Of a stretch of DNA of 64,000 nt, positions 3,296 to 48,913 are shown in pieces (the first letter of the stretch is position 1; the number at the start of each line of letters is the position of its first letter). The notes under the pieces are model-generated. The model had not been told where the DNA came from and searched no databases. It saw only the letters and a program-made list of their open reading frames with translations. Origin of the DNA: Eledone cirrhosa (taxonomy: Eukaryota); NCBI GenBank assembly GCA_964016885.1, contig OZ024760.1, forward strand, positions 11,718,001 through 11,782,000. Direction: 5' to 3'. A program made the position numbers and the translations under genes.

Positions 3296-4387
3296 TCCTC
3301 AGAACAATAATAAAGGTAATTGGCAATGGTGGGGTGAAGTTGGGGGTGGGGACAGAGAGACTGGGAAGGTGGGGCTGGTACTAATTGCTTTGATCTGCCT
3401 TAAATTTCCTTTCCCTTCCCCTGCATACCACTTAGTTTCCTCAACCCTTGGCTTTTCAGCAAAAGGATTGGATGGTTGTATGAAGAGATGTGTGTGGGTG
3501 TGTGAAGGGGTTATTATGTCTTACCAGAGATACCCTTATTGAATTAACTCATCTACACATAGTTGTGAGTGTGTGTATCATCATCATTATTTCATTTTAC
3601 GTCCACTTTTCCCTGCTTGCAAGGGTGGGACGGGAACTGATTCTAGCTTGATTTCTACAGCTGGATGCCCTTCCTAACACCAACCTCATTTACAGTGAGT
3701 GCTGGGTGCTTTTTTTTTTTTTCGTGGCACCTCCACGTCCACTTTACAGTGAGTGCTGGGTGATTTTTGCCATGGAACCTACATGACCACTTTGCAGTGG
3801 AATGATATGGACCCCAGTCCCTATCATCTCATTTCTACAGCTGAGTAAACTGGAGAAATGTGAAATAAAGTATCTTGCTCAAGGAAACAACACATCACCC
3901 GGTCTGAGAATTGAACTCACAACCTTTCGATTGCAAGACCAATGCTCTAAGCCATGTGCCTCCATGTGTATATTTTATTATTTTATGTAATTCTGGATGT
4001 ATATATGTCAGCTTTGATGTCTTTATGGTATTTCTCCCACCTTTTTGTGCACTCGGAGTTCAAATCCTGCTGTAGTCAACTTTGCCTTTCATTCTTTCAG
4101 GGTTGATAAAAAAAAAGTACCAGTCTTGTACTGGGGTCAATTCTTCCTCTGTAGAAAAAATTGGCTGTGTTTAGACCTGGAGAGGGTTGGGGTCAACCAG
4201 GTTTAAATGTGCCCTAGACATGCTATATGACGGTGCCCTAGACATGCCATATAACAATGCCCTAGACATGCCATATGACGGTGCCCTAGACATGTCTTAT
4301 GACAGTGCCTCTACGACTCCACAAGGAGTTATGGGATCTTTATCCTATATATTATTAGTAGAGATTAAAGTTTAAGCAAATAATTTC

Positions 4388-7099: not shown

Positions 7100-7436
7100 A
7101 TCTATCTATCTATCTATCTATCCATCTATCTCTATATCAGCCTGTAGGTTGAGGAAAAGGAGGAGGAGAGGAAAGGAGTACAAACTCTTCGTACTCCTGG
7201 AGATGAGGGTTGCACATTTTTTCGGGGGTATGTGTTACCCAAATGTAATGTGTCCCCCTATTGGGGAAAATCGACTAACTTTTTAAATTGCATTTGTGAT
7301 AACATTTTACACGTTTTTATTGTATGTAAACTTCCCCCTTTGTATTTGTCCCCTTCTTTTGTGCCCCTCTGGCTAATAAATAAACATATCTATCCATCTA
7401 TCTATCTATCTATCTATCTACCTCTCTATCTATTTA

Positions 7437-8912
7437 CAAATCACCCGGTCTAGATGGTCTACCCTATGAGTTTTACATAGGCATGCTGGACTTGTTCTCT
7501 GGCATCCTCAAAGCCGTCTACTGCAATTGGCAGCAGAACGGCAAAATTCCCAGTTCTGCAGGCAAGGGCGTAGTAACGCTGATCAGGAAAGATGAGAACA
7601 AAGGGTACGAAATTAACACCTTCAAGCCCATAACTCTGCTCAACACAGAGTTAAAGATTTTGGCCAAGGTGTTAGCGACGAGGTTGGCGCTTGTTGTCGA
7701 GAACCTGGTAGGGAAAACGCAAACGTGTGCAATCCCGACCAGGTCCATACACGACAACCTCCACCTCATGCAATACATCATAGAGAGGGTAGGTAGTAAA
7801 CCCAGCTTCAGTGGGGCTCTGAACATGTGCTGAGGCTGCGGCATCTCCAGGTATTCCTCACCGAACCCCAACCGGTGTGGGCACCGTTTGTGAGACAGGC
7901 TTTCTCGCAGCTCGTCTCGCTGATGGACCTGCAGTCCTGAGTCAAGAAAAGACTGAAAACGATGGGTGCCTGGCACATTGAATGCACTGAGGCGCTCACA
8001 GTCCTCTGGCAAGCGGGCACAGCAATCAGTGAAGACTCCACTTTGACATTCTATAGAGAGATTGTACATTACAAGGGTGACGACGTGCTCGGAGAGACTC
8101 TGGGCATCGAAGACGATGAGCTCACCAGTCTGTTTGGTAGGACTTTCCGCCCGGGACCTATGGACAACTTCCCTGGCCTAGCAGTGCTACCGACGAGCTC
8201 TACCAGTTCGTGACAAGATCTACAGGCACAGACGCCCCGGCAGGGATCCTTCCAAGAGGACATATCCAAGACGCACGCAAGACATTGAAACCGTCCTGCA
8301 CGCAATTGTATACTGCCCGAGCGTAACAGACCTGTGGAACTACGCGGAACAACTGCTGTCACGTATAGGACAAATCCAGTTGACTGCCGAGTCCATAGTA
8401 AGGATCAAACGGCCAACTTCTTTCAAAAATGAAAGAGAGGCGGTTTTCCTCTGTATAGTGGCTATGGTGAAAGAGGTTATATGGTGGACGAGATTGAGAG
8501 GACTGAGGACAGATGCCTTTCTCTCCAGACAACAACTCATTCCCTTCTTTAGATACCACTTTAGAAGGAGAATCAGAATGGGGAGAGAAGCACTGCACCC
8601 CGGTAAATTTACTGAAAGGTGGGTGAATGTGGAACAAATGGCCCGAGTGATTGGGCCTTCTCTATATATAAACCTATGAGTTGAAGAAGAGAGCAAAAGG
8701 AGAAAGGAGCACTTGCACAACACGCTCCTGAAGTTGAGGGTTGTTCTATCTACGGGGTATTAAACAACCCATTTGTGGCGCCTCCCCCCTATTGGGGATT
8801 TCGATTGTTATAATTGTTTGTTTTATATTTTTTTACACGATTTTATGTAAAATCCCCAGCATGTCTTTGTTTTATCCCCTTTTCTTGTGCGCCCTTGTGG
8901 CAAATAAAGAAA
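7437..8912 (+). mobile_element. L1/Tx1-clade LINE, 5'-truncated and internally deleted
   Basis: KSPGLDGLPYEFY...FKPITLLNTELKILAKVLATRL...QTCAIPTRSIHDNL (RT N-terminus) jumps at about 7820, before the LD..KAFD motif, to C-terminal sequence. The 3' UTR ends AATAAAGAA followed by (TCTA)n. Confidence 0.85.
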
Positions 8913-10480: not shown

Positions 10481-11019
10481 TATATATATATACACATATA
10501 TCTATCTATTTACCTACCTATCTATCGATTGATGTATATCTACCTATCTATATATCAATCTACCTATCTGTATATCTATCTATCTATCTATCTATCTACT
10601 TTACTACCCTTATAAATTCTCTCTCCTCGGACTCCCTCTTTCTCATGCTCTGTCCCTTTTTAGTGGGCTCTGTTCTCTCTCATCCTACCATGCACCCCTT
10701 ATCCTGAAATGGAACTGCTCCCCTTTGTGTGTGACTGTTAAACTGCAGATGTAGAGTACATTCTGACCCCAGATTTGCTAAAATACAGAAAAAAGGGGAC
10801 ATATATCTGTATGTCTTACGGTTATTCCAACACTACAACAACAATAACAACAACTTGAACTACAAGAGCCTATATAATTTATATTATATAATATATATTA
10901 TATATATTATATACACAGTCAACTGTAAGTCTTATTGTTGTTCTTCTTTCTTTTCTTTTTCTTCTTCTTCTACTTCTTCTTCTTCTTCCTGGTGTTGTTT
11001 CTTTTCAAGGTTCTTCCTA

Positions 11020-13960
<2,941 letters not shown>

Positions 13961-14330
13961 CATACAGTGAGAAAACTGCACATTCGCTCCTGTTAGGCCC
14001 ACCCCCGACCCCCCTGACCCACCCCGTGTCCCAAGATCCCATCCTCCGCCTCGCCCCTCCAGGACCCCAGCTAACACCCCCTCCCCCCCACCATTACTGA
14101 CATCAGTCATTCTTCTGGGTCACATATGTCACATGGCTTTTACGGGGAGGGGGAGGGGGTCATATGCATCATCTCCACTGTAGTATTGGGGTGTCTTATG
14201 TCATTGGTGGTGGTGGCGGTGGTGGTGGTGGCGACGGTGAGGAGGCAGCGGTTGGTGGTGGGGGGGGAGGGTCATATATATATATATATATATATATATT
14301 TCCTTTTTTCCTCCTTTTAGCTATATTATA

Positions 14331-14431
14331 CAGGGTGTCCCAAAAAATTGTATACACAATTTGATTACCTGTACAAGCAATATTTATTAGAATGCTGTTG
14401 AAGTGTGTATATATTTTTGGGGGACACACTG
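14331..14431. mobile_element. Tc1/mariner-derived MITE
   Basis: TA|CAGGGTGTCCCAAAAAATTGTATACAC ... GTGTATATATTTTTGGGGGACACACTG terminal inverted repeats. Confidence 0.7.
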
Positions 14432-14454
14432 TGTATGTGTATATATATATATTT

Positions 14455-14852
14455 ATAACGAAGGAAATGTGGTAAGGAACCAGGTGGAGCATAACGCACC
14501 TGAGTACTCAATACTTAGGGTAGTAGAGTGGGAAATAGGAAAAAGTATGACCCCGACGGCAGAGCTCAAATTTATTCTAGAAATAGCCGTCGAAACGGCT
14601 TTAGCTCTGCCGTCGGGGTCAAACATTTTCCTATATATATATATCTATATATATATATAACGAAGGAAATGTGGTTAGGAACCAGGTGGACCATAACGCA
14701 CCAAAGTACTCAATACTTAGGGTAGTAGAGTGGGTAATAGGAACGAGTAGGACCCCGACGGCTGAGCTCAAGCTGTTTCGACGGCTAATTCTGGACTGAA
14801 TTAGCCGTCGAAACGGCTTGAGCTCAGCCGTCGGGGTCCTACTCGTTCCTAT
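14455..14852. mobile_element. Two tandem copies of a (TA)n-inserted fold-back element
   Basis: Two related units of about 180-195 bp separated by TA. The second has 55-bp arms (14737-14791 / 14798-14852, one mismatch). The GAGTACTCAATAC-like motif is shared with 21793, 25751, and reversed at 17560 and 9054. Confidence 0.75.
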
Positions 14853-15149
14853 ATATATATATCAATGATATTAATAAATGGAAACTATATTTATAAAACC
14901 ATATTTATTCTATTTACCAAAGTTTTGGTACCCTTGAAATATGTATAATAAAATAAATATGGTTTTATAAATATATTTCTATTTATTAATATCATTGATA
15001 TTATATTCCAGGTAAACTGTTGAGTGCTTCGAATCTGTTATAAATATATATATTTGTTGAATTACCAACAAATTAAATATCCCTTTGCTTATATATATGT
15101 ATATATATGTATGTTTGTGTGTATGAGTGACTGCCTATTTCTATCTATC

Positions 15150-15156
15150 CCTCGGT

Positions 15157-15228
<72 letters not shown>

Positions 15229-15820
15229 ACCTTTCTATCTCTCTCAGTCTCTATCTATCTCTATGTCTCTCTCTCTTTCTCTCTATCTATCACTCTATCT
15301 ATTTCTCTCTATCTTTCTCTCTCTCTATCTCTGTCTCTATCTATCTACCCCCCCTCTCTCTCTCTCTCTCTCTCTCTACCTCTCTCTCTCCCTCTCTCTG
15401 TCTCTATCTACCCCTCTCTCTTTCTCTCTATCTATCACTCTATCTATTTCTCTCTCTCTTTTTCTCTCTCTCTCTCGCTCTCTCCCTCTCTCTGTCTCTA
15501 TCTACCCCTCTCTCTCTCTCTCTATCTATCTACCTCTCTACCTATCTGTCTCTATTCCCTGTCAGTCAAGGTCAGGTTAACCCTAAACAAGCTCCCCTTA
15601 ATACACACACATACACATACACACATACACATACACACATACACATACACATACACACACACATACATACACATACACAGAAACACACACACTCATACAC
15701 ATACACAGAAACACACACATACACATACACAGAAACACACACACACACATACACAGAGAGACACACACAAACATAGACATACACAGAGACACACACACAG
15801 ACACACACACAGAGACATAC

Positions 15821-15851
<31 letters not shown>

Positions 15852-16640
15852 CAGAGACACACACATACACATACATACACACATGCATACACACATACGT
15901 ATACACATACACACATACACACTCATACACAGAGATACACACACACACACATACACACACATGCACACACAGATACATACACACACACATACACATACAT
16001 CCACACACACACATACATATACACATACATACACTTATTATACATACATTTATATGTGTGTGTGTGTCTGTCAATATATATATGTGTGTGTGTGTGTGTT
16101 GAGATATATGTGTGTGTGTCTGTCAATATATATATGTGTGTGTGTGTGTTGAGATATATGTGTGTCTGTCAATATATATATATGTGTGTGTGTTGAGATA
16201 TATGTGTGTGTGTCTGTCAATATATATATGTGTGTGTGTGTGTCTGTTGAGATATATGTATATGTGTCTGTCAATATATATATGTGTGTGTGTTGAGATA
16301 TATGTATGAGTCTGTCAATATATATATGTGTGTGTGTGTGTCTGTTGAAATATATGTATATGTGTCTGTCAATATATATATGTGTGTGTGTGTGTCTGTT
16401 GAAATATATGTATATGTGTCTGTCAATATATATATGTGTGTGTGTGTGTGTTGAAATATATGTGTGTGTGTCTGTCAATATATATATGTGTGTGTGTGTG
16501 TTGAGATATATGTGTGTGTGTCTGTCAATATATATATATATGTGTGTGTGTGTGTCTGTTGAGATATATGTATATGTGTCTGTCAATATATATATATGTG
16601 TGTGTGTGTGTGTTGAGATATATGTGTGTGTGTCTGTCGA
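15150..16640. repeat. Compound (TC)n/(CA)n/(TG-TA)n microsatellite with higher-order units
   Basis: Seen directly. Confidence 0.95.
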
Positions 16641-16836
16641 GATATTTTCTGCATCTTGTGAAAATATCTGCCTGTACCATTGCATTTAGCTGCAGTGCTG
16701 AATAACAACCCCACTATGCACTCTCTCCATACTCGCCATTCACGATCTCCCTCTTGTTGCCCTCTATTGCATTTCTAATGTTCATGTGACTAAGCTCGGT
16801 AGAGCTTATACTCAGCACTGTATTTTTGTTTATAAA

Positions 16837-16881
16837 GCTCTGATGATTCCTGCCCAATGGTATGGATGAAACATTGTCAGT
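16837..16881 (+). ncRNA. Degenerate hammerhead ribozyme motif
   Basis: GCT-CTGATGA-T-TCCTGCC..GGTATGGA-T-GAAAC[ATT]GTC-AGT; the loop is one base shorter than the AATT of related copies. Confidence 0.5.
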
Positions 16882-18636
16882 AAATAAAAATTGCATGAGT
16901 ATGTAGGCGTTCTTTGATTTCTTTCACATATAACGGCTCTGTTCTTGTACATTGAGCTTATACAATGCTGTCACAAATACGACACGGTACAGGAGCGTTT
17001 ATGCACATATACTCTGTGGTCTACGTAAATAAATATATATACATATATGTATATATATATATACATATATACATATATATATACACATATATACATATAT
17101 AAATATATACATATATATATATACATATATATATATATACATATATACATATATATATACATATATATACATATATATATATACATATATACATACATTT
17201 AATGTTCAAACCAGCCAGAATTCTCTACCTCTTTCTGTTGAAACTGGCTGTAACTGGCTACTCATACTGATGTTTAGGTATTGTTCTCAAAACAAATACT
17301 TTCAAAATCTCATAGATTCGATATTATGTGAGATAACTATCTGAGGTAAAGCCTTTACCATGAAAATATAATAGTATATATAGAGTAATGTGAATGCTAA
17401 ACAGATATATACATATATACAAATATATATACATGCATATATATATATATATATACACACATACATACATACATATATGGAACTAACTGTAGATATGGCA
17501 AGAGCTCAGCCGTGAGGGTCACAACTCTTTATAATATAACCATACTCTACTACTCCAAGTATCGAGTACTCTGTTGAGTAATGGTCTAACCAGTTTGAAA
17601 CTGAATCCATCCTGATGTATATAGCTCCTACTAGAGTAGTACAGCAACCCAATGCCACCCCTCTATCCAGCTTTAATTATATATATCATCATTATCATCA
17701 TTTCATTTTACGTCCGCTTTTTCCCTGCTTGCAAGGGTGGGACGGGAACTGATTCTGGCTTGATTTCTACAGCTGGATGCCCTTCCTAACACCAACCTCA
17801 TTTACAGTGAGTGCTGGGTGCTTTTTTGCCGTGGCACCTCCACGACCACTTTACAGTGGAATGATAGGGACCCCACTCCCTATCATCTCATTTCTACAGC
17901 TGAGTAAACTGGAGCAATGTGAAATAAAGTGTCTTGCTCAAGGAAACAACACATCACCCGGTCTGAGAATTGAACTCACAACCTTTCGATTGCAAGACCA
18001 ATGCTCTAACCACTAAGCCATGTGCCTCCATTATATATATATTTATATGTATGTCTTGCTGGACTTACAAGCAAAAGGATGTGCTTTTTCCTGCCCGTGG
18101 CATATCACAAAATCGAATTTCATCTGAGGATACCGTTCTCATAACAGCAATAAATGCATGAATTACATCTTGATTGCATGGGAGAACTGTTGAAATAATT
18201 ATAATGAATTTATGTAACATCAGCATCTTTATTAATGTTGTTATTGGCAGTATCAGTAGAGGGACGGACGCCATGCTTTGCAGCAAAGAGTTACGGCCAT
18301 TTATAGACTGGGTGCTTTTTGTTGTGATACCTACATGACCACTTTACAATGTGGACTGGGTACTTTTTGTTGTGACCAACACAACCACTTTACAAAGTGG
18401 ACTGGGTGCTTTTTGATGTGACACCTACATGACCGCTTTACAGTGTGGACTGGGTGCTTTTTGTCATGTCACCAGCACAACCACTTTCCACAAATACTCT
18501 CTACATCCCTAAAACAACATTATCATTTCTCTATTCAAATAATTGTCTTTGTTGCTTTCCAGTGAGAAGAATATTTTCTGCAGATTTCCCTCCATAACAA
18601 CAACACCAGAAGTACAACAACAACAACAACAACAAC

Positions 18637-20946
18637 ATGAATGTAAAGAGGAACAACTTAAGTTGCCTGGCTCTGGTTTGGCTCTACATCTGCTGTTACT
18701 GCCTGTCTTGCTGTTATGCTGGTTCGTATTAAAATATTTCAGTTACCTTGTAAATTTTCACAATAATCTGTCTACTAATAAAGTTAGTATAAACATTTGA
18801 ATTAACAAACCTGTTCACAGATATTTTCTGCCGAATCATTACAAGATGTTAAGAGATAATACTACAAATTTTTACAACAATCTGTCCTCTTATAAAGTTA
18901 CTATAAACATTTGAATTGATAAACCCAGTTATAGATATATAGATATATTGGTAAGCTCCTTCTTGGATATGAAAACAAATGATGATCAACTGCAAACTGT
19001 AAAGAAATTGGTGTATAGGTGGTACCAGATGCACAATAACATGTGGAGGGGTGAGACAGGAGTTTCTGACAGTAATGTCTACCATTTAGGTACTGCCAGA
19101 TACATAATAACATGTGGAGGGGTAAGACAGGAGTTTCTGACAATAATGTGTACCATATAAGGCAGTACTAGATGCTCAATAACATGTGGAGAGGTGAGAC
19201 AAGAGTTTCTGACAATAATGTGTACCATAGAGGCAGTACTAGATGCTCAATAACATGTGGAGAGGTGAGACAAGAGTTTCTGACAATAATGTGTACCATA
19301 GAGGCAGTACTAGATGCTCAATAACATGTAGAGAGGTGGGACAAGAGTTTCTGACAGTAATGTGTACCATATAGGCAGTACTAGATGTTCAATAACATGT
19401 AGAGGAGGGGAGGCAGGAGTTTCTGACAGTAATGTGTACCATATAGGCAGTACTAGATGCTCAATAACATGTAGAGGAGGGGAGGCAGGAGTTTCTGACA
19501 GTAATGTGTACCATATAGGCAGTACTAGATGCTCAATAACATGTGGAGAAGTGGAACAAGAATTTCTGACAGTAATGTGTACCATATAGGCAGTACTAGA
19601 TGCTCAATAACATGTGGAGAGGTGGGACAAGAGTTTCTGACAGTAATGTGTACCATATAGGCAGTACTAGATGTTCAATAACATGTAGAGGAGGGGAGGC
19701 AGGAGTTTCTGACAGTAATGTGTACCATAGAGGCAGTACTAGATGCTCAATAACATGTGGAGAAGTGGGACAAGAGTTTCTGACAGTAATGTGTACCAAA
19801 GTTGCCTTGGTGTAAAAGTAATAAGGTAAAACCTGAAGTTTCTTCTCATTAAGATCATTGAGAAATTGAACCTACCACCCTTAGATATTTAAATTGCTCC
19901 CCTATTGGGTGTGAGCACCTCACTTTATCTGTTTTTAAGTCAATGTACCAACAACAACAACCCTGAGCACCTTTTTGAATCCCATATGTCTAACACCTGT
20001 GGACATGCTTGCAAAGTCAGAAAACTGTACAGCTTCCATGACTTTTAGAAACATTTCATGGTCAGGGTTGCAGAAGCATGGAACAAAATACCTGCATCAG
20101 TTGTTAGCTGTCAGGACACTGCACTCTTCAAAACCTCCATGCTTCCCGAAATTCACCAACACTACACCTGATATTACCCCTCCATACACATGCAGTCATG
20201 TGTGTCTGTGTGTATATATATATATGTATGTATGCATGTACGCACGCACGCTCGCACATGTGTCTGTGTGTATATCATGACTCACACACTGTTCACTTCC
20301 CTGACATTTGTACATTATTCTATGTACTATACATGCACCTTTGATAAGTTGTAGTGCTTCTGAGCACTGTACACAATAATTTTCATTATTGTTATATTAA
20401 TATATATTTGTACCGTCCTGCATTGTCCTGCACTGTCCTTAATGTCTACTTTATGTAAACCCTTGTGGTTAATAAAGAAATCGTTATATTAATATAACTT
20501 ATGAACCATGTCTGACAGGGGGCTGGTTGCCATTTGGTGACATAAAACTGGACATTGCACCTCAGCGGCTCGCCAGATGCAGACATCAAGATCTGTGAGT
20601 AGAGGTGCTTGGCTGTAGCAGAGGGCTGCAGAATGTGTGTAGGAGCTTCGTGGATAGCAATACAGTAGAAACAGGTTCTGGTGCTATGAAATATAACCAT
20701 ACCTTTCAAAGGGTTCATATTTAAATTAAAATCTTCCAGCATAGTTTTATATAGCAACCAAGTTACACTAACTTAGTACCTTAGTGATGAGATGAAATAA
20801 TTATTAGTTTTAGTAAATCCCTCAAAATTCTTCATCAATTAATTGAAATAGAGTGTATTTCATTAAAAATACAATCACAAAAAGATTAACGTGTTTTTCC
20901 AACAAAATTTTATATATGAACCATGTGTTAAGTTACTATAATGATG

Positions 20947-20981
<35 letters not shown>

Positions 20982-22308
20982 AAGAATTTATATCTAGTAA
21001 CATTTACATACATACAGATGCATATCAATGCTAGCAAATATATAGGTTTTGTCTTAGTAACATTGTGGTTCAATGCATGGGGTTGCAGAACAATAATATG
21101 AGAGACATAAGATAAGAAAATTATAAAATTAACTTACTTATATAGTAAGTCAATTATATATATATATACATATATATAGAAAGAGTGAAGAATAACATGG
21201 TCAACAGTACAAAAAAGGTTTTTATTTACAGCCTAACAATTGTTTCACTGATTAAGTTGTCTAAAAATTGCTGAACATTTGAAGCTGTGCCACTCAATTT
21301 TAAATACGTCGTTAGCTTAACCAGATCATCAGAGAAAAAAAATCTTTTTTGTACTGTTGACCATGTTATTCTTCACTCTTTCAATATTATTACTCCAAGA
21401 TAAACTTGGAATGCAAAAGAACTCATAAACTCGCCACCTATGTAAACCCCTTGTTGAGTCAAACAACGCCGTACGCTAAAACTATCCACAATACGAAGTA
21501 TTCACAACCTCGAACTGGATTACCTATAACGATATTTTGTTATCCCATATATATATATATATATCTAATGTATAATAAACAATACAATATGACTTTTTAA
21601 CCATTGTCTCAGTTTGTATGACCATTTTAACTTATGTTTATAGCTCTGGTATCTTCATATCCATGGAGCGCTTGTCTGCACAATACGGAAGTTGCGTTTC
21701 GCCAATTTCTACCCCCTGAAATGCGATTCTCGCTAAATTTATATTCATATTTGTATATATATATATATTTGTAGTTGACGGCTGAGACAAAGGAGTACTC
21801 AATACCGAAGTAGAGTTTAAATATTTGTTTTATTATGGCTAGCTATTAAGTCTTGTTACTCTAGAGTTTCGTCAGATGAAACTTCAGAGTAACAAGACTT
21901 ATTATTTAGCATTGATATATATATATATATTTAAAAGAATAGAGGTGTAACACACAAGTTATGATATATTGGTAAACGGAAAAGAAAATGCTGACAAATT
22001 GTTCACAGTGAAAAATAGCTTAATTAGGAATAAGTGAGAATTAGTAATAGTATTGGTTAGTATTCAGTTTTGGTTTTAAGTTTTACCGGTTGCGCATTTC
22101 TAATGCTTTTCAAAAATAATTTTGAGATAGAGCGTCCGTGATGTTTGCTCTAATCTGTATGTATATATATATATATATATATATTGAATATATATAGTAA
22201 TAATAATAGTAATAATAATAAATTTGAAGACTAAAATCCAAAGAGGAGGATAAATATATAAAAACCCTAGTGATTCTTTGCTTAAACTTTAATCTGTTAT
22301 TTTAATAA

Positions 22309-22363
<55 letters not shown>

Positions 22364-23720
22364 TACATACACACACATATAATCTAATAAATCACACAAA
22401 TACATCAATTTCACAGTTAAAGGACTAACATTTATTACATAACTGACACGTGTTTCACCAATAAGTAGGTGAGAAATACCTAGAGTCGCTAATCCAATGG
22501 GATTTATTGGAAAACTTGATTTCCAATACTTTGTGTTATATATATATATTTACTCAGCTGTAGAAATGAGATGATAGGGACTGGGGTTCCTATCATTCCA
22601 CTGCAAAGTGGTCGTGGAGGTGCCACGGCAAAAAAGCACCCAGCACCCACTGTAAATGAGGTTGGTGTTAGGAAGGGCATCCAGCTGTAGAAATCAAGCC
22701 AGAGTCAGTTCCCGTCCCACCCTTGCAAGCAGGGAAAAAGCGGACGTAAAATGAAATGATGATGATGATGATGATACTTACGGTAAATATTGATGCAATT
22801 AAATTCAAGTACACTACGTACTTTTTCCACATAGGAATGACCGAGAACGGAACCTTATTATGTAAGAAGCAGGCATATTGATTTATTCATTTATTTATTT
22901 ATTGGCGGTCATTTCAGACGGGGTCAACTTTACTGTCCAGCCAGAACAGCCTGAAGAGGTGAGCACCACGTTAAGCCCAACAAATGCCAAACAGATGGCT
23001 GTGATGGGTGAAAAGAAAGAGAAAGTATCACATGATATCTACATACAGGACGGTAAAGGTAGCAGCAGTGGTGGTGGTGGTGGTGAATCTGGAGCTGCTG
23101 CTGCTGCTGTGGCACATATTGAGGGTACTGAGTCTCCCAACCAGACAAATGAACTGACCAGCAGTAAAAATTACATCACTAACCAGGTGGAGAACTCTGC
23201 TGCAACAAGTTTCGGACTGGTAAGAAGTCTTTCTTTTTTTTTTTTCTTTTTTTTTTTTATATATAGTGTGTTTGATTTTCACGCGAAGATGCGTTCATGA
23301 ACACGGCACATAAAGGAAATTCGTGTAATTCAAGCTTAATATTTCTGATAAATAAAAAAATAAAAAAAACCACACGAATTATAGAGCGTTATTTGCATAA
23401 AGTGAATATTTGATATTTTTTTCAAGACGCATTAAATTAAAGTACTTCAAGATTGCGTAAAAAGCAAACAGACTATAATTGTTGCTGTTTTTGTTTTTGT
23501 TGTGGTACCAGTATGACCACCTTATTGGGTGGACTGGGTATTTTATTTTATCATATTTTTATATTTTTATTTTATTTTATTTTATTTTATTTTATTTTAT
23601 TTTATTTTATTTTATTTTAATTTTATATTTTTATTACTTTTATCTTTCCAGAACATGGTGTTTGCTATCTGCTGCTTCTGTGCGACATTTGCAGCCATTT
23701 TCCAAGCTAAATTTCTATAA
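18637..23720 (+). CDS. Unrecognised 151-aa secreted, predicted GPI-anchored, low-complexity glycoprotein; join(18637..18721,22918..23219,23652..23720)
   Basis: Exon 1 encodes MNVKRNNLSCLALVWLYICCYCLSCCYA+G (signal-peptide-like) with a GT donor at 18722 (phase 1) and an upstream acceptor ttgctttccag at 18562. Exon 2 follows atttcag (AG 22916-17) in the matching phase, DGVNFTVQPEQ...ENSAATSFGL, donor GTAAGA at 23220 (phase 0). Exon 3 follows a T-rich tract and ctttccag, NMVFAICCFCATFAAIFQAKFL*. The frame stays open across both junctions. Confidence 0.75.
19010..19797. repeat. 71-72-bp minisatellite, about 11 copies, in intron 1 of the GPI-protein gene
   Basis: Unit GAGTTTCTGACAGTAATGTGTACCATATAGGCAGTACTAGATGCTCAATAACATGT(G/A)GAG... 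Confidence 0.95.
21179..21382 (-). mobile_element. Fold-back Penelope-like relic containing a minus-strand hammerhead core
   Basis: 39-bp inverted arms 21179-21217 / 21344-21382 beside (TA)n. The minus strand reads CTGATGA-T-CTGGTTAAG...CTTAATCAG-T-GAAAC[AATT]GTT-AGG. Confidence 0.6.
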
Positions 23721-24245
23721 AGTTCACCAGTTGAGCAATGGGAGAAGATGAAGTTGTATCATAGATCAGATTTTGAAGCTGACACCCAGTCAAATCCAGT
23801 TGTGTTCTTTGAAACACACTTTTCAAATTCTGAAACTCCTCTCATTTGCAACCACTCATATTCTATTTATTACAACTTTTCCTCGCCTCTTTATCTTTAT
23901 TATTATTAAGGGTGGTGGATTAGCAGAATCGGTAGAGCGTCGGACAAAATGCTTTGCAGTAATTTAGTTACAGCCCTTTACATTCTGATTTCAAATCATT
24001 CAGAGGTTTGCTTTGCCTTTCATCCTGACGGGGTCGATAAAATAAAGTACCAGTAATGCCCTGGGGTTGATTTAATCGACCCCCCCCCCCCCCACCCCGC
24101 CTAAAATTGCTGGCTTTGTGCCTAAATCAGAAACCATTATTATTTTTTTTGTCATTTTTTTTTTCAAATTCCATTTCTCTGTTCCAAACCTCTATCTCTC
24201 TTCTATATATTTTTGTATCATCATTTATATATATATATATATACC

Positions 24246-28144: not shown

Positions 28145-28894
28145 ACACCTCCAATACCGTATATACTGATCAGGTGTGAACTGGTATAATCCAGTCGAAG
28201 ATAAGATAGAACTGATATATATAAACAAGTTTTCTTTCCTCCACTCAGTTCACCTCAACACATGTCACAGTCTCTGTCACACATAGTTCTATAACACTAT
28301 AACAACAACAGCAACAACAACACCAATAACAGGAGCACCACCACCAACACCACCACCACCACTACAATCAACAACACCAGGAACACCACCACCGCCACCA
28401 CCAACAACAACAGCACCAGGAACACCACCACCACCACCACTACAATCAACAACACCAGGAACACCACCACCACCACCACTACAATCAACAACACCAGGAA
28501 CACCACCACCGCCACCACCATCAACAACAGCACCAGGAACACCACCAGCGCCACCACCAACAACAACAACACCAGGAACACCACCACCGCCACCACCAAC
28601 AACAACAGCACCAGGGGCACCACCACCGCCACCACCAACAACAACAGCACCAGGAACACCATCACTACCATTAACAACATCAGGAATAGGAGCCCCGAAT
28701 AACTGACAGTCCTGTTATGTACCCTACGTTGGCCAAACAATATTCTAACACATCTCTCTATATTCCTCTACCAACTAAATTCACAATGCTGCATGTAAGT
28801 GAAACTACCTTTTGGTTTTTCCTGTTTTTATTTGACCTGCTAGAGATAGCAGCCAAAGCTCCCCTCCACACACAGCGCTTCAAAGCTTATTCTA

Positions 28895-29748
28895 TCTTCT
28901 TCTTCCCCCACTTTTTCTTGAGAGGGTCATGGACTCCAGCCTCACTCAAACATTCCTGCCAGAGAGTCCTGTCAGAAGCAACGGTCTACAACTGATCCGG
29001 CTGGATCTCCAAGCAAGACCAGACAAGCTCATGGATGTTATCCAACCATCTTGCTCGGGGTCTACCCCTGGGTCTCCCGTCGGTTAGTTTTGCCCGTAAA
29101 ATCTGTCCAATGATACTTTCCTGAGACATTCTAACCACATGCCCATAGTATTGGAGCTGTGATCTCTTATTTCAGAGATTCCTTCCTGAGACATTCTAAC
29201 CACATGCCCATAGTATTGGAGCTGTGATCTCTTATTTCAGAGATTCCTTCCTGAGACATTCTAACCACATGCCCATAGTATTGGAGCTGTGATCTCTTAT
29301 TTCAGAGATTCCTTCCTGAGACATTCTAACCACATGCCCATAGTATTGGAGCTGTGATCTCTTATTTCAGAGATTCCTTCCTGAGACATTCTAACCACAT
29401 GCCCATAGTATTGGAGCTGTGATCTCTTATTTCAGAGATTCCTTCCTGAGACATTCTAACCACATGCCCACAGTATTGGAGCTGTGATCTCTTATTTCAG
29501 AGATTCCTTCCTGAGACATTCTAACCACATGCCCATAGTATTGGAGCTGTGATCTCTTATTTCAGAGATTCCTTCCTGAGACATTCTAACCACATGCCCA
29601 TAGTATTGGAGCTGTGATCCCTTATTTCAGAGATTCCTTCCTGAGACATTCTAACCACATGCCCATAGTATTGGAGCTGTGATCTCTCAATTCGGAGAAG
29701 TAGCAGCTCTACCTGGAGTGACTCTCTGATATCTGAGCTATACACTCT
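28895..29748 (-). mobile_element. RTE-clade LINE 3' fragment with an internal 65-bp tandem amplification (about 9 copies, 29121-29687)
   Basis: Minus strand [31 protein letters not shown]...GRPRGRPRARWLDNI with a (GAA)n tail. Same family as 43222-43650 and 40480-40770. Confidence 0.85.
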
Positions 29749-30290
29749 ATTGAGTAATATTATTCCAAAGACCTTCAGAGGAACCCCCATCGAAGGGTCT
29801 TTGGAATATATTAACTAATTGATAGGAGTTATGCAACACCATAGTATTAGCCTCAACAAATCTCACTTTGATGGGATATTCATATCTCCACTACATTGAG
29901 TTCTAACAGAGTTATATGTCCTACCTTAATTGATTTAGTAGAATATATCTATATATATATATATAAGGTGGTTGTGTAGGTGTCATGACAAAAAACACCC
30001 AGTCCACACTGTAAAGTGGTTGTGTAGGTGTCATGATAAAAAGCACCCAGCCCTCACTGAAAAGTGGTCGTGTAGGTGTCATGATAAAAAGCACTCGGCA
30101 CACACTGTAAATGTGGGTGGTATTAGGAAAAGCATCCAGCTGTTGAAATCTTGTCTAAAACAGTTCTATATGAGTAAGACACGGTCACCTGACCCAACTT
30201 GCTTCAAATAGGACAACCCGTCTAACCCATGCTAGCATGGAAAATGGACATTAAACAGTTATGATGATATATATATATATATATATGATG

Positions 30291-34251: not shown

Positions 34252-37200
34252 AGGCAGCTATCATCAAATCTTTTGTAGCTGGTTCACTCAGTGGGACATG
34301 CTCAGCTTTTCTCTTCCAACCATTAGACTTAGTGAAGACCAGACTCCAGTCACCAATTAAATCTGGGTGAGTGGCTTTCTATGTCAGATGTATAGTGGTG
34401 GTGGTGGTGGTGGTGATCTTGTGGTGGTGGTGGTGGTAGTGGTGATCTTGTGGTGTTGGTGGTAGTGGTGATCTTGTGGTGGTAGTGGTGATCTTGTGGT
34501 AGTGGTGATCTTGTGGTGTTGGTGGTAGTGGTGATTTGGTGGTGGTGGTGATCTTGTGGTGTTTGTGTGGGTGAAGACCTGGCTCCAGTCACTATTTAAA
34601 TCTGGGTGAATGGCTTTCTATTTATGATGTAAACACTGTATGTGTGGTGGGGCTGATGGTGATCTTGATGGTGGTGGTGTTGGGTGTCGGGGTGATAGCT
34701 AACTTAATTTCAATTATCCTAGTTTCATTAAACCTAGTTTTACCCTCCTTACTGCTCCTTTCTCCACTTAATAAACTCTCCCAGTCTTAGCTTAATTATG
34801 TTATCTAGTTCCCCCCTACCTCCCCTCCACCACATAATAGACTCCCCTAGTCTTACTTTAAGTCTGTTATCTCTCCAGATAAAATGAAGCTACAATATTA
34901 TTTCTTGTGTAATTTCTCTAGTGAAGGTCGTCTGGGTGTTCTATCTGTGATAACCAATGTACTGAAACAAGATAATATCACTGGACTATGGAAAGGTCTG
35001 GCCCCAGTAAGTTCTCATTTCCTTTCCTTTTTTTTCTCTTTCTTTTCTTTGTTTTCTTACTTTTTGTCCTTTTCCAATGTCATTGCATCTTACCCTCTCA
35101 CTGTATGTCCTTACCCCGTCACTGTATGTCCTTACCATGTCACTGTATGTCCTTACCCCGTCACTGTATGTCCTTACCATGTCACTGTATGTCCTTACCT
35201 TGTCACTGTATGTCCTTACCCTCTCACTGTATGTCCTTACCCCGTCACTGTATGTCCTTACCCTCTCACTGTATGTCCTTACCCCGTCACTGTATGTCCT
35301 TACCATGTCACTGTATGTCCTTACCCCGTCACTGTATGTCCTTACCCTCTCACTGTATGTCCTTACCCCGTCACTGTATGTCCTTACCATGTCACTGTAT
35401 GTCCTTACCCTCTCACTGTATGTCCTTACCCCGTCACTGTATGTCCTTACCATGTCACTGTATGTCCTTACCCCGTCACTGTATGTCCTTACCATGTCAC
35501 TGTATGTCCTTACCTTGTCACTGTATGTCCTTACCCTCTCACTGTATGTCCTTACCCCGTCACTGTATGTCCTTACCATGTCACTGTATGTCCTTACCCT
35601 CTCACTGTATGTCCTTACCCCGTCACTGTATGTCCTTACCCCGTCACTGTATGTCCTTACCATGTCACTGTATGTCCTTACCCTCTCACTGTATGTCCTT
35701 ACCCCGTCACTGTATGTCCTTACCCCGTCACTGTATGTCCTTACCATGTCACTGTATGTCCTTACCCTCTCACTGTATGTCCTTACCCCGTCACTGTATG
35801 TCCTTACCTTGTCACTGTATGTCCTTACCCTGTTACAGTATGTCCTTACCCTGTCACTGTATGTCCTTACCATGTCACTGTATGTCCTTACCCTCTCACT
35901 GTATGTCCTTACCCCGTCACTGTATGTCCTTACCATGTCACTGTATGTCCTTACCATGTCACTGTATGTCCTTACCCCGTCACTGTATGTCCTTACCCTG
36001 TCACTGTATGTCCTTACCATGTCACTGTATGTCCTTACCCTGTCACTGTATGTCCTTACCCTGTCACTGTATGTCCTTACCCTGTCACTGTGTGTCCTTA
36101 CTCTGTCACTGTATGTCCTTACCCTGTCACTGTATGTCCTTACCCTGTCGCTGTGTCATTACCCTGTCACTGTGTGTCCTTACTATGTGTATGTGTCCTT
36201 ACCTCATATGTGTCTTTACCCTGTATGTGTCCTTACCCTGTATGTGTCCTTACCTCTCTCTGTGCATTTCCTTGTGTAATCAGCTTTCCCATTCTGTAAA
36301 TTGTTGGCTTTGTACCTCAATTAGACATTTTTTCATCCTTACTGGGTAAATAAAACAATAAAATAAAGCACCAGTAATGCACTGGGGTCAATTTAATCAA
36401 CTTTCTTCCTCCCCCAAAATTGTTGGCCGTGTGTCTAAATCAGAAACCATTATTATTTCAGACTATTACAAGATGTGTGCCAGGCATTGGTATCTACTTC
36501 TCCCTGGTTTATTCCTTTAAAACCCATTTGGGGTGAGTATATTACCTTCAGCATTTTACTTCATTTTTTTTTTGTTGCTGGAATTTGTTGGACTTTGGGT
36601 TGTTGTTTGACCCCAGGCCAGCCCACACTGAACTGACCCTTTTAGTCAAACATGTTCCAGCCATTACTGCCACATTCCTTCTCTCGGGCATTGTGTTGCC
36701 AGGAAAACATTATCCAACACATCGCTCTTGTTTCAGCTAACCTCTTCTCTAGCAGAGAGAGAGAGAGAGAGAGAGAGAGAAGACATGACCCTTGTTTGTC
36801 CCCAGGTCAGCCCTCACTGAACAGAGCCTATAAGCCTATTAAAATATAGAGGTTTGTATCAGACATAGAACCAGAGTCAATTTCAAGGGAATTTGTATCA
36901 AAAGGGTTGAATGAAATAGTACTACAAGCGTAGAAGTTGCATGAGCACCTTACAAGGTGGACTGGGTGTTTTTTGTCGTGGCCCCAGCATGACCACTTTA
37001 CAAGGTGGACTGGGTGCTTTTTGTCGTGGGCCCCAGCATGACCACTTTACAAGGTGGACTGGGTGCTTTTTGTCGTGGGCCCCAGCATGACCACTTTACA
37101 AGGTGGACTGGGTGCTTTTTGTCGTGGCCCCAGCATGACCACTTTACAAGGTGGACTGGGTGCTTTTTGTCGTGGGCCCCAGCATGACCACTTTACAAGG

Positions 37201-39847
37201 TGGACTGGGTGCTTTTTGTCGTGGCCCCAGCATGACCACTTTACAAGGTGGACTGGGTGCTTTTTGTCGTGGGCCCCAGCATGACCACTTTACAAGGTGG
37301 ACTGGGTGCTTTTTGTCGTGGCCCTAGCATGACCACTTTACAAGGTGGACTGGGTGATTTTTGTCGTGGCCCCAGCATGACCACTTTACAAGGTGGACTG
37401 GGTGCTTTTTGTCGTGGCCCCAGCATGACCACTTTACAAGGTGGACTGGGTGCTTTTTGTCGTGGCCCTAGCATGACCACTTTACAGAGTGGACTAGGTG
37501 CTGTTTTTCATGGAACTATCATGGCCATGTTACAGGGTGGACTGGGTGCCTTTTTTCATGGCATCAGCACTACCACTTTACAGGGTGACTGCTTGCTTTT
37601 TGTTGTGGCCCCCAACATTGTGAGGGAGGGAATTGTAGAAGTGGTGGTGAGGTTAGACTGTTTGTTATTGAAAGGGCTAAAATGCTTGTTAACATTGTTG
37701 TTGTTGTTCAAAGAAATTTGTGTATTTTGTTTGTTTGTTGCTTATTAACTGTTTGTGAAATATTTACTTATTTATTTCTATTTTATTATTTTTAACTTCA
37801 GATCTGATGTCCCTACCATTATAGAATCTCTGTCTGTGGGTGCTGCTGCCCGCACCATTACAGTCGCCATTATGCATCCATTCAGTGTCTTGAAGACAAG
37901 ATACGAGGTTAATCTTCTTTTATTATTCTTTACCGTTGGTGGATTGGCAGAATCGGTAGAGCGTCGGGCACCATGCTATACAGCGTAGAGTTACGTCCCT
38001 TTGCATTCTTGATTCAAATCCTGTCGAGGTTAGCTTTGCCTTTCATCCTTATGGGGTCGATAAAATGAAAGTACCAGTAATGCACTGGGTTGATTTAATC
38101 TACTTTCCCCTCCCCTTAAAATGCCAGAAGTCTCCACATCTAACAGAGAGTAGCCAATATGTTGACAGTTTTCCCTTTGGCCTGATGGGCAATGATCTCT
38201 CAGATAGGCCAGGACCTCATCTCACATGATTCACCAACATTAGGGAGGTTGTCATTTCTTTCACACAACTAAAGAGTCCTCTCTTGCAAGTTTTTCTATA
38301 TCTGGGTGACCTTCCTATCACCAACCACTTTACTGGGTGCATTTTACCATGACACCAGCACTAGAGGCACTATCGTGTCTTTGACACAAATAAAGGGTCC
38401 ACTCTACCCTTTGTTTAACAGGCTTTCTATGGTTGGATGACTTTCATATCACCAACCACTTTACAGAGTGTATTGGGTGCATTTTGATAGTTTCTCACTG
38501 AAAGTATCATTTGTTCTATTTTCAGAGTGGTATTTATAATTACAAAAGTATTCCAGGAGGTTTAGGGAACATTTACTATTCTGAAGGTCTGCCTGGTAAA
38601 TATATCTTTATCATTCTGCTCTATAAATCTTATATTATAAAAGAAAAGCTGTTTCTCCATCACACATATATGTAGAAGGAATGAAAAGGGGAGGAGTGAT
38701 TACATATAGGGGTTTTTTGTTGTTGTTTGCGCGAATGGCCTTCAACATATAGACATCACAACACAGACTTCAAAAACACTTTCACTATAATGACATGTTA
38801 TTATTGAGAGAGTGGATTGGCAGTATCAGTAGAGGGTCGGACGCCATGCTTTCCAGCATAGTTACGTCCCTTTACGATCTGAGTTCAAATCCCGCCGAAG
38901 TTGACTTTGCCTTTCATCCTTACGGGGTCGATAAAATAAAGTACCAGTAATGCACTGGGTAATTGCTGGCCTTGTGCCTAAAGTAGAAACAATTATTGAG
39001 AGAGAGAGAGTGTGTGAAAGAAGATGGATAGGTAGAGAGTGTTGACACCATAGTAACTAACGAGTTTTGATTGAAAATGCAGGAATTATAAGTGCAAGTC
39101 TGTCAGCACATGTGTGTGTGTGTTTCTCTATATCCTAAGGAAAACCGGGCTACAACTAGTATATCTTTATTCTACTTCTCCATAAGTATATTTTTATTCT
39201 TCTTCTCTATAAATATATCTTTATTTATTCTGATCATGTCTATCTCTGTCCTCTTTTGTCAGGTTTTTACTCTGGTTTGGTTCCCACCCTAGCTCGAGAT
39301 GTCCCGTTTTCGTCTCTTTACTTTGCAATTTACACACAAGCTAAAATTCTTCTGCCTTCTGGTAAGTGACCTCTATACAACTAATCTGACCTTTTTTTGT
39401 GAACTCCCTGCAGTGGGTTATGTCCAGCTTTTACTGAGTTGTACCACACCCAAATGTACTATGGCTTAGCTAAGTTTGTCGCCCATGCTCTCTCACAGTG
39501 GGGCCACAACAAAAAACACATAGTCCACCCTGTATTTATATTTATATATATATATATATATATATTTTTTGCTTTTGATTTTTACTTTTACTTATACCTA
39601 TTACACTTCCAACCAGTGCTGCCTGTAATTGTGTTAGTTAAATCGGAACATCGTTTTAACTCCTGACTCTCCACATGATGCCTATGACACTAATAACAAC
39701 TATGTACCCTAAATGTTCTAAATTACTAGGATTCTAGTTAGACGTTTTCGACATTCCTTATGTTCTGATGATTCCAGACTTCCCTCTGGAAGAAACAATT
39801 GTCAGCTAATAAATGTTCTAAACTAAAATTTGATCGTTTTAACACTT

Positions 39848-39883
<36 letters not shown>

Positions 39884-46149: not shown

Positions 46150-46992
46150 ATGTATATATAACATTGATAACTTTGGCAGATTTTGGCTAGTATTGGCCCA
46201 GGCCATGTCTAACTTAATAGTACCACCTGGCGAAGTCTTTCAAGTCAGGATTTGGACACCATGGCCCACTCAAGAAGGGAGTTATTGTTTACGGAGACAT
46301 ATCCAAGTGTAGGAGGCTTATCCGGGATTTCTTGAAGGAATTTGTCGAAAGACTTCTTGAACTTCATGGGATCTGTTTCTGTTTTAATGTCTTTTGGTGT
46401 TATGTTAAAGAGAGCGGGGCCAATTGAGGTGGAATAATTGTGCCGTATTGTTGTTATGAGATGTGAGTGAGATTTTTGTTGTGGGTGTATAGCACAGGAA
46501 TCAATCTTTACTTTAAAGGTGATGCCAATATTATTTGGGCAATGCTGATGGAATATTTTCCACATCTTACAGATAATGTAGCGTTCATGGCGGCGTTGAA
46601 GAGAATAAAGTTTGAGTTTTTTTAGTCGACCCCAATGGTTAAGGCCTGTCATGCCATCTATCTTTTTCGTGATTGACCTTTGAGGAGCTTCAATTTTCAT
46701 GATACTTTGTTTCATGTGAGGAGACCACAGTGGACAACAGTATTCAAGGTGGGGTCAGGCAAAAGTGGAGAAGAGAAGGATAATAGTGTGGATATCTCTT
46801 GATTGGAAGGTTCTGAGAATCCAGGAACCCATTCTGCAGGCCATGTCAACTTTGCTGTTTATATGAGTGGCCCAGCTTATGTTGTTGTCTACAATTACTC
46901 CCAAATCTCTGATGTTGTTGGATCCCACGAGAGTTTCACCTGAAGGAAGGGAGTATGGGAGTTTCAGGGCATCCGCTTTTCCAAAGTGGACT
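46150..46992 (-). mobile_element. CR1-group LINE 3' portion
   Basis: Minus strand IRDLGVIVDNNISW...PHLEYCCPLWSPH...RLKKLKLYSLQRRHERY...FDKFLQEIPDKP; ends in TA. Confidence 0.88.
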
Positions 46993-47174
46993 TCTCCAAA
47001 TCTACAAAAGCTAAGTAGAGGGGTTTACTTTTAGCTAGGTAGTCTCCTGTAGTTGTCGTACAATTTCCGTATATATTCGAGGAATATGTGAATAAAAAAT
47101 CGATGGTAAAAAAAGGGGTCGGCTTATATTTGGGGTCAATATTTTGACGATTTTTACCAACTTTATAAAGTGTA

Positions 47175-48431: not shown

Positions 48432-48913
48432 ACACACATCTAGGACCACATACAACACATAAGCAGGTAATACACACATCTAGGACCACATACAACACAT
48501 AAGCAGGTAATACACACATCTAGGACCACATACAACACATAAGCAGGTAATACACACATCTAGGACCACATACAACACATAAGCAGGTAATACACACATC
48601 TAGGACCACATACAACACATAAGCAGGTAATACACACATCTAGGACCACATACAACATATAAGCAGGTAATACACACATCTAGGACCACATACAACACAC
48701 AAGCAGGTAATACACACATCTAGGACCACATGCAACATATAATCAGGTAATACACACATCTAGGACCACATACAACACACAAGCAGGTAATACACACATC
48801 TAGGACCACATGCAACACACAGGCAGGTAATACACACATCTAGGACCACATATAACACACAGGCAGGTAATACACACATCTAGGACCACATGCAACACAT
48901 AAGCAGGTAATAC
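48432..48913. repeat. 40-bp minisatellite, about 12 copies, at the 5' junction of the CRE element
   Basis: Unit ACACACATCTAGGACCACATACAACACATAAGCAGGTAAT; the last unit runs into the CRE frame. Confidence 0.93.

What the first reader, a model, noticed from the sequence alone, without database searches (positions are those of the whole stretch)
18637..23720. Hidden three-exon orphan gene for a small GPI-anchored, Cys-free, disordered surface glycoprotein with a Gly/Ala core
Seen: three fragments that the ORF track never joins splice in phase into 151 aa. The parts are a signal-like MNVKRNNLSCLALVWLYICCYCLSCCYA; a polar mature chain with no Cys and two sequons (NFT, NQT); a central GSSSGGGGGESGAAAAAVA; and small residues NSAA about 30 aa from the end followed by a hydrophobic tail with no cytoplasmic domain. 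Established: that tail pattern is typical of a GPI-attachment signal, and signal + disordered chain + Gly/Ala tract + N-glycan + GPI is the architecture of vertebrate Shadoo/PrP and of CD24/CD52-type small surface proteins. Inference: this may be a lineage-specific cephalopod surface protein, analogous rather than homologous. The Gly and Ala runs are encoded by (GGT)n and (GCT)n microsatellites, and the ORF is split by introns, unlike PRNP/SPRN.
Basis: partly seen in the sequence, partly recalled or inferred. Interest (0 to 1): 0.75.

Follow-up and report, generated by a model that had tools for sequence, protein, structure and literature searches.

The report
Octopus-restricted small cell-surface glycoprotein gene
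A real spliced gene, so far found only in octopuses and already listed as uncharacterized in three species, encodes a small protein that is likely floppy, sugar-coated and lipid-anchored to the cell surface, and its prion-like glycine/alanine stretch is only a repeat insertion missing from the three relatives.

Summary
The gene is real. The three pieces join through GT-AG introns into 151 aa. Contigs of one public run lack the last intron exactly and reveal a fourth, non-coding 5' exon ending at 10924. The 18721^22918 junction was not seen in reads, but 141-aa orthologues annotated in Octopus sinensis, O. bimaculoides and O. vulgaris are colinear across it (102-106 of 140 identical). In O. vulgaris the orthologue has the accession next to the same neighbour, SLC25A38. 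So it is not hidden; it is uncharacterized, single-copy, and undetected outside Octopus. The Gly/Ala 'core' is a 10-residue (GGT)5/(GCT)5 insertion absent from all three orthologues, so the Shadoo/PrP analogy fails. Conserved instead: a signal-peptide-like start, two sequons, ENSA plus a hydrophobic tail ending KFL, and a mature chain as conserved as the neighbouring carrier (69 of 84 vs 215 of 265). Best reading: a CD24/CD52-like GPI-anchored surface glycoprotein (0.6). A tail-less transmembrane anchor is the main rival; no GPI predictor could be run. No earlier scan finding bears on it.

The parts
10807..10924 (+). Upstream non-coding exon (not in the finding). The 3' end is fixed by the donor GTAAGT at 10925. 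Holds a 15-codon upstream ORF.
   Evidence: Loose end of X4 contig before 18563; match at 10910-10924, single place in the genome; sequence; uORF
10925..18562 (+). Intron 1, 7638 nt, GT..AG
18563..18721 (+). Exon 2: 74 nt of 5' UTR with an in-frame stop before the ATG at 18637, then codons 1-28 and the first base of codon 29
18637..18720 (+). Predicted signal peptide, residues 1-28: basic n-region, hydrophobic Cys-rich h-region, C-Y-A before the predicted cut
   Evidence: Hydropathy and alignment; helix 8-30 in the model; cleavage site by the recalled (-3,-1) rule, no predictor run
18722..22917 (+). Intron 2, 4196 nt, GT..AG, phase 1, weak donor GTTCGT; contains a 71-bp tandem array at 19014-19798
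   Evidence: junction supported by orthologue colinearity only
22918..23219 (+). Exon 3: residues 29-129, the whole predicted mature chain and the candidate GPI site
22926..22934 (+). Sequon N32-x-T, kept in 4 of 4 sequences (NFT here, NVT in the others)
23013..23057 (+). Block K61-K75, identical in 4 of 4 sequences
23058..23108 (+). Gly/Ser/Ala tract with (GGT)5 and (GCT)5; 10 residues longer than in the three orthologues
23100..23168 (+). Block A90-K112 including sequon N103-Q-T, identical in 4 of 4 sequences
23193..23198 (+). Candidate omega site N121 or S122 (E-N-S-A kept in 4 of 4)
   Evidence: rule scan, by the layout in PMC2571997
23220..23651 (+). Intron 3, 432 nt, GT..AG, phase 0
   Evidence: skipped exactly by X4 contig 31
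23652..23956 (+). Exon 4: hydrophobic tail (residues 130-151), stop at 23718-23720, then 3' UTR to at least 23956

Best explanation
This is a spliced, single-copy octopus gene whose 151-residue product is likely a small, unfolded, glycosylated protein that is predicted to be held on the outer cell surface by a GPI lipid anchor, where it would act as a CD24/CD52-like recognition or adhesion tag. Shown: the exon structure, transcription in one run, orthology, synteny, and conservation of the middle chain. Inferred steps: residues 1-28 lead it into the ER and are cut off; N32 and N103 are N-glycosylated and the Ser/Thr-rich chain is O-glycosylated; the transamidase cuts at N121 or S122 and swaps the last 29-30 residues for GPI; the roughly 93-residue mature chain presents glycans and two invariant peptide blocks (K61-K75, A90-K112) to a partner, and any signal would need a co-receptor. 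The Gly/Ala tract is a tolerated microsatellite length change in the linker between the two blocks, not a functional core.
For: Splicing. Orthologues in 3 Octopus species, 102-106 of 140 identical. Adjacent accessions CAI9739384 (SLC25A38) and CAI9739385 in O. vulgaris, and the same scaffold lengths for both genes in the other two species. Two hydrophobic ends (19-residue hydropathy 2.07 and 2.12), none inside (0.42). AlphaFold: helices 8-30 and 112-135, coil between. The PredGPI layout (PMC2571997, passages) is met in the window protein: polar linker, omega N or S with small omega+1/+2, 7-residue spacer (hydropathy 0.43), 20-21-residue hydrophobic tail, and no basic cytoplasmic tail beyond KFL. 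The mature part is more conserved than the two ends (69 of 84 vs 34 of 56, Fisher p=0.006; regions fixed by the predicted cuts) and as conserved as the neighbouring carrier (215 of 265), as expected if the ends are discarded signals. Gly/Ala insertion absent from 3 of 3 orthologues.
Against: No SignalP, NetGPI or PredGPI run was possible. In the three orthologues the spacer is hydrophobic (1.9-2.7) and the uncharged run is 27 residues, long enough for a transmembrane helix. The propeptide of 28-30 residues is at the upper end of the 20-30 range, and omega-1 is Glu if omega is Asn. GPI and transmembrane ends are hard to tell apart from sequence (PMC10863630 section 23). The AlphaFold model has mean pLDDT 44.5 from a 4-row alignment, so low confidence may reflect missing data, not disorder. 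There is no tissue, localisation or partner data. The recognition role rests on architecture alone; the CD24 lead in the Atlas scores 0.83, below the 0.9 bar. Transcript evidence is one run of unrecorded kind at depth 2-9.
Confidence: 0.6

Rival explanations
1. Type I single-pass membrane glycoprotein: signal peptide cleaved, the C-terminal hydrophobic helix stays in the membrane with a three-residue KFL stub, possibly palmitoylated on its C-x-x-C.
For: 27-28 uncharged residues before the last Lys in 4 of 4 sequences; hydrophobic spacer in the three orthologues; one continuous helix 112-135 in the model; KFL and C-x-x-C kept in 4 of 4.
Against: No basic cluster or cytoplasmic tail; the tail is the least conserved part (15-16 of 28); E-N-S-A kept at the expected distance. 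In Drosophila Dprs/DIPs most such ends proved to be GPI signals although a TM predictor called 15 of 32 TM (PMC10863630 abstract and section 23).
Confidence: 0.25
2. The N-terminal Cys-rich helix is an uncleaved signal anchor, giving a doubly anchored protein (tetherin-like topology or a two-helix hairpin) with the glycosylated chain as an outer loop.
For: Basic residues before a 19-residue stretch of hydropathy 1.6-2.1; 5-6 Cys in the segment; helix runs 8-30.
Against: C-Y-A|D fits a cleavage site in 4 of 4 and coincides with the exon end. The conserved sequon N32 would sit too near the membrane to be used if the helix stayed (recalled rule of about 12-14 residues). Only 4 of the 6 Cys are kept, the same as the segment's overall identity (18-20 of 28).
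Confidence: 0.08
3. A functional analogue of Shadoo/PrP in which the Gly/Ala tract is a self-associating hydrophobic core.
For: Same coarse layout as Shadoo: signal, disordered chain, N-glycan, GPI, similar length (PMC4324250 passages).
Against: The tract is absent from 3 of 3 orthologues, is coded by pure triplet repeats and has hydropathy 0.42. No RGG; net charge -7. ORF split by two introns, where SPRN's ORF is in one exon. No Pfam or PDB match to prion-family proteins.
Confidence: 0.03
4. A precursor whose invariant block between K61-K62 and G74-K75 is cut out as a short amidated peptide.
For: The 15-residue block is identical in 4 of 4 and is flanked by KK and GK.
Against: KK and single K are weak convertase sites (recalled); no KR or RR; a hydrophobic tail is atypical of peptide precursors; the second invariant block has no such sites.
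Confidence: 0.04

Closest known systems
Octopus uncharacterized proteins LOC115223720 (XP_029650261, O. sinensis), LOC106877760 (XP_014782255, O. bimaculoides), CAI9739385 (O. vulgaris)
   Same: Orthologues: colinear over the whole length, 102-106 of 140 identical, same neighbour gene, same sequons N32 and NQT, same ENSA and KFL.
   Different: They are 141 aa, lack the 10-residue Gly/Ser/Ala insertion, carry an extra sequon (N42) and a more hydrophobic spacer.
CD24 / CD52 small GPI glycoproteins (Pfam PF14984 for CD24)
   Same: Layout only: signal peptide, short Ser/Thr/Asn-rich unfolded chain, hydrophobic tail (CD24/CD52 layout recalled). CD24 cluster is a features lead at 0.83.
   Different: No Pfam match; predicted mature chain of about 93 residues against about 30 and 12 (recalled); vertebrate families; lead below the 0.9 bar.
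Shadoo (SPRN) and prion protein
   Same: Signal + disordered chain + N-glycan + GPI, about 150 aa (PMC4324250, PMC9247643 passages).
   Different: No RG repeats, no conserved hydrophobic domain, acidic, ORF split by introns, no sequence similarity.
C1orf54 (DUF4634) and LLCFC1/SOF1
   Same: Top named Atlas feature leads (0.86, 0.84): small signal-bearing chordate proteins.
   Different: Scores under 0.9 and 144-150 shared features; the lead falls to 0.75 when only the mature chain is given, so it mostly reflects the hydrophobic ends.

Membership tests
Octopus LOC115223720 orthogroup | Full-length sequence similarity | tested here: met
   E 7e-29 for exon 3 alone; 102-106 of 140 identical
Octopus LOC115223720 orthogroup | Same genomic neighbour and single copy | tested here: met
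   SLC25A38 downstream here; adjacent accessions in O. vulgaris; one locus in G000
GPI-anchored proteins | N-terminal ER signal peptide | tested here: inconclusive
   Hydropathy and a C-Y-A|D site fit in 4 of 4; no predictor or experiment
GPI-anchored proteins | Omega site C/D/G/N/S with small neighbours, 20-30 residues from the end, after a polar linker | tested here: met
   N121/S122 here, N112/S113 in orthologues; propeptide 28-30; linker hydropathy -1.2 to -2.0; omega-1 is Glu for the Asn site
GPI-anchored proteins | Spacer omega+3..+9 then hydrophobic tail to the C-terminus | tested here: inconclusive
   Clean in the window protein (spacer 0.43, tail 1.97); spacer hydrophobic in 3 of 3 orthologues
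GPI-anchored proteins | No internal transmembrane helix and no cytoplasmic domain | tested here: met
   Best internal 19-residue hydropathy 0.42-0.44; one Lys in the last 25 residues
GPI-anchored proteins | Release by PI-PLC / GPI found on the protein | not testable with these tools
   bench test
Shadoo/PrP family | Conserved Ala/Val/Gly hydrophobic domain | tested here: not met
   Tract absent from 3 of 3 orthologues; hydropathy 0.42
Shadoo/PrP family | Basic N-terminus with RG repeats or octarepeats | tested here: not met
   No Arg in the predicted mature chain; net charge -7
Shadoo/PrP family | ORF in a single exon | tested here: not met
   ORF spans three exons
Shadoo/PrP family | Profile or structure match | tested here: not met
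   No such Pfam family at E<=1 for 4 of 4 proteins; PDB search gave one unrelated hit at E 0.65
CD24/CD52 | Sequence match to the family profile | tested here: not met
CD24/CD52 | Heavy glycosylation of a GPI-linked short chain | not testable with these tools
   Two conserved sequons and 21% Ser+Thr allow it but do not show it

The most novel reading that the evidence does not exclude
A young gene born within benthic octopuses from repeat-rich non-coding DNA, its Cys/Tyr-rich signal peptide recruited from a TGY-type microsatellite, which has become a strongly constrained GPI surface tag for an octopus-specific trait such as neuron, sucker or gamete recognition. Allowed by: no hit outside Octopus although at least one Argonauta hians protein, the neighbour's orthologue at 182 of 265 identity, is in the database; simulated relatives at 40% identity are found 190 of 200 times; the signal peptide weakly matches translated microsatellites. 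Not excluded: fast divergence, or a missing annotation in Argonauta and squids.
Probability: 0.2. Interest if true: 0.6.

Novelty: new member of a known kind. Interest (0 to 1): 0.3.

Why it matters
Modest. It turns an anonymous octopus gene model into a testable candidate for a lineage-restricted surface tag: a chain with no detectable fold that is as conserved as a housekeeping mitochondrial carrier probably binds something. Taxonomically restricted genes underlie other cephalopod novelties such as reflectins and suckerins (PMC9068888, passages). It is also a clear case of a prion-like Gly/Ala look produced by triplet repeats in one species. Without expression or binding data it does not yet address an open question.

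Tried and rejected
No RNA holder listed by record; X4 is read as RNA only from its spliced contigs. X4 has no cover on 18649-18740 or on 22918-23018, which is no evidence against these parts. Paralogues: 3 weak own-genome hits besides the locus itself (E 0.017-0.79) fall on simple-repeat or unrelated sequence. Pfam: 0 families for 3 of 4 proteins, and two sub-threshold hits for P0003 (Mucin E 0.037, FAM186A E 0.089). PDB by sequence: one chance hit. Atlas structure rows all under its naming bar. No fold search was run because the model is low-confidence. Literature: 0 papers hold any of 5 accession terms; 0 for octopus + GPI-anchored + lineage-specific genes; 0. Supplements: no occurrence in 2 of 5 files of PMC9712504 (one unreadable, two too large, among them the data zip, which may hold marker lists), in 1 file of PMC11202624 or in a 393-character file of PMC12607849. 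The 2015 octopus genome paper is not held. One search listed no squid or cuttlefish among 7 hits of 18 candidates, so it does not show that their proteomes are in the database. The promoter scan is bacterial and says nothing here. Earlier scan notes: nothing relevant. Rejected: chance join of fragments, processed pseudogene as the source of the spliced contigs (no intronless copy in G000), ER-retrieval dilysine or PTS1 reading of KFL (does not fit the recalled motifs).
Full report
1. Observation. Joining 18637-18721, 22918-23219 and 23652-23720 gives 456 nt, 151 residues and a stop, with GT..AG introns of 4196 and 432 nt. The predicted mature chain (29 to about 122) has no Cys, but the two hydrophobic ends hold 9. 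The Gly and Ala runs are (GGT)5 and (GCT)5.

2. Transcript evidence. Four public runs hold exon 3, all of unrecorded kind, from two samples of one study. X1-X3 run through exon-intron borders (22785-23223; 18649-18778) and behave as DNA; they may be the source of the assembly. X4 behaves as RNA. One 506-nt contig lies on 23019-23218 and goes on at 23651-23956 with no other letter, the predicted last junction shifted by a shared G. A 151-nt contig at depth 2.1 lies on 18563-18595, directly behind an AG acceptor, and has 118 loose letters before it. The 30 letters shown match 10895-10924, a single place in the genome, followed by GTAAGT. The gene therefore has at least four exons. The junction 18721^22918 was not observed: X4 has no contig there. 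No intronless copy exists in the genome, so the spliced contigs are not from a retrocopy.

3. Relatives. Exon 3 finds one cluster among 8 candidates. Its 3 members are 141-aa uncharacterized proteins of O. sinensis, O. bimaculoides and O. vulgaris. They align end to end with the 151-aa join, across both coding junctions, at 102, 106 and 103 of 140 positions. The next gene downstream in the window is SLC25A38, the mitochondrial glycine transporter. In O. vulgaris its accessions are CAI9739383/84 and the orthologue is CAI9739385; scaffold lengths agree for both genes in the other two species. HMMER over 1.84 billion representatives returns only that cluster, and a profile search scores 1 of 1091 candidates. 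The first search hides relatives over 50% identical to the representative; the second should see those through shared words but covered only 55-247 residues. Ungapped simulated relatives are found 200 of 200 times at 50% identity, 190 at 40% and 81 at 30% (optimistic, no indels). An Argonauta hians protein is in the collection, the neighbour's orthologue at 182 of 265 identity, yet no Argonauta hit appears for this gene. That suggests restriction to benthic octopuses, but depends on that annotation being complete; I did not show that squid or cuttlefish proteomes are held.

4. The Gly/Ala tract. Between K75 and H95 the window protein has 10 more residues than all three orthologues. Pure triplet runs suggest recent slippage (inference); three close Octopus species cannot fix the direction. 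The best internal 19-residue hydropathy is 0.42. Shadoo is defined by RG repeats, a conserved hydrophobic domain and a one-exon ORF (PMC4324250, passages). None is met, and Pfam and PDB give no prion-family match. The analogy shrinks to the generic layout of a small GPI protein.

5. What is conserved. Against O. vulgaris: signal 19 of 28, middle 69 of 84, tail 15 of 28; middle versus ends p=0.006. Eight SLC25A38 exons give 215 of 265 against the same species (exons placed by best fit to the reference). The middle chain is thus as constrained as a carrier protein, with two invariant blocks (K61-K75, A90-K112) on either side of the insertion and two kept sequons. AlphaFold shows helices only at the ends, pLDDT 44.5; the Atlas model has pTM 0.24. 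Both fit disorder but are weak with so few sequences.

6. Anchor. By the layout in PredGPI (PMC2571997, passages) the window protein fits well: omega N121 or S122, polar linker, 7-residue spacer, 20-21 hydrophobic residues to the end, one Lys. A third candidate, A124, passed my looser rule in the window protein only. Hydrophobic helices at both ends and none inside is also the criterion of FT-GPI (PMC9876418, passages). The orthologues keep E-N-S-A at the same distance but have a hydrophobic spacer, giving 27 uncharged residues that could span a membrane. Sequence alone separates these poorly (PMC10863630, abstract and section 23). I put GPI at about 0.65 and the full reading, a GPI-anchored glycosylated recognition tag, at 0.6.

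7. Mechanism. Shown: exon structure, transcription in one run, orthology, synteny, constraint. Inferred: ER entry and signal cleavage after A28, N- and O-glycosylation, GPI transfer at 121/122, display of a roughly 93-residue flexible chain whose invariant blocks and glycans bind a partner on the same or a facing cell. Tissue and partner are unknown.

8. Print. No paper holds the five accession terms; two searches found nothing either. Supplements searched had no occurrence, but the main data archive of the O. vulgaris brain atlas (PMC9712504) could not be read and may list the gene. PMC9247643 and PMC9068888 were seen as passages only. CD24/CD52 sizes, the (-3,-1) rule and the glycosylation distance rule are recalled.

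9. Verdict. Observation confirmed and extended by one exon; interpretation partly supported. A genuine, already annotated but uncharacterized octopus-restricted gene of a known architectural kind. Interest 0.3.

Noticed in passing
window 34254-41811 (+): SLC25A38 mitochondrial glycine transporter, at least eight coding exons, 215 of 265 identical to O. vulgaris.
   Followed up: yes
window 28714-28800 (+): 29-codon stretch 52% identical to the N-terminus of the Argonauta SLC25A38 isoform but not matched by the O. vulgaris isoform tested: a likely alternative first coding exon.
   Followed up: partly
window 10811-10858 (+): 15-codon upstream ORF in the non-coding exon, partly an ACA repeat; may dampen translation.
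   Followed up: no
window 18733-18750 (+): The start of intron 2, read in the frame of exon 2 after a stop, spells the same six residues (NISVTL) as positions 42-47 of the O. sinensis orthologue. Probably chance; unexplained.
   Followed up: partly
window 7384-8676 (+), 46248-47024 (-), 28989-29814 (-): Decayed LINE-like fragments; the first has a weak reverse-transcriptase match (E 2e-4), the others are judged by recalled motifs and had no Pfam hit.
   Followed up: partly
window 48911-49357 (+): 149-codon frame with a DGKRPDG motif that recalls the endonuclease end of site-specific non-LTR retrotransposons (recalled; no Pfam hit).
   Followed up: partly
window 18306-18487, 29964-30116, 36939-37612, 42687-43126: Four 48-bp tandem arrays sharing a CTGGGTGCTTTT core, and related single copies in very high-copy SINE-like repeats at about 22550-22740 and 23900-24150.
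   Followed up: no
window 3787-3987 (+), 17753-18013 (+), 58609-58869 (-): Three near-identical copies of a short interspersed repeat.
   Followed up: no
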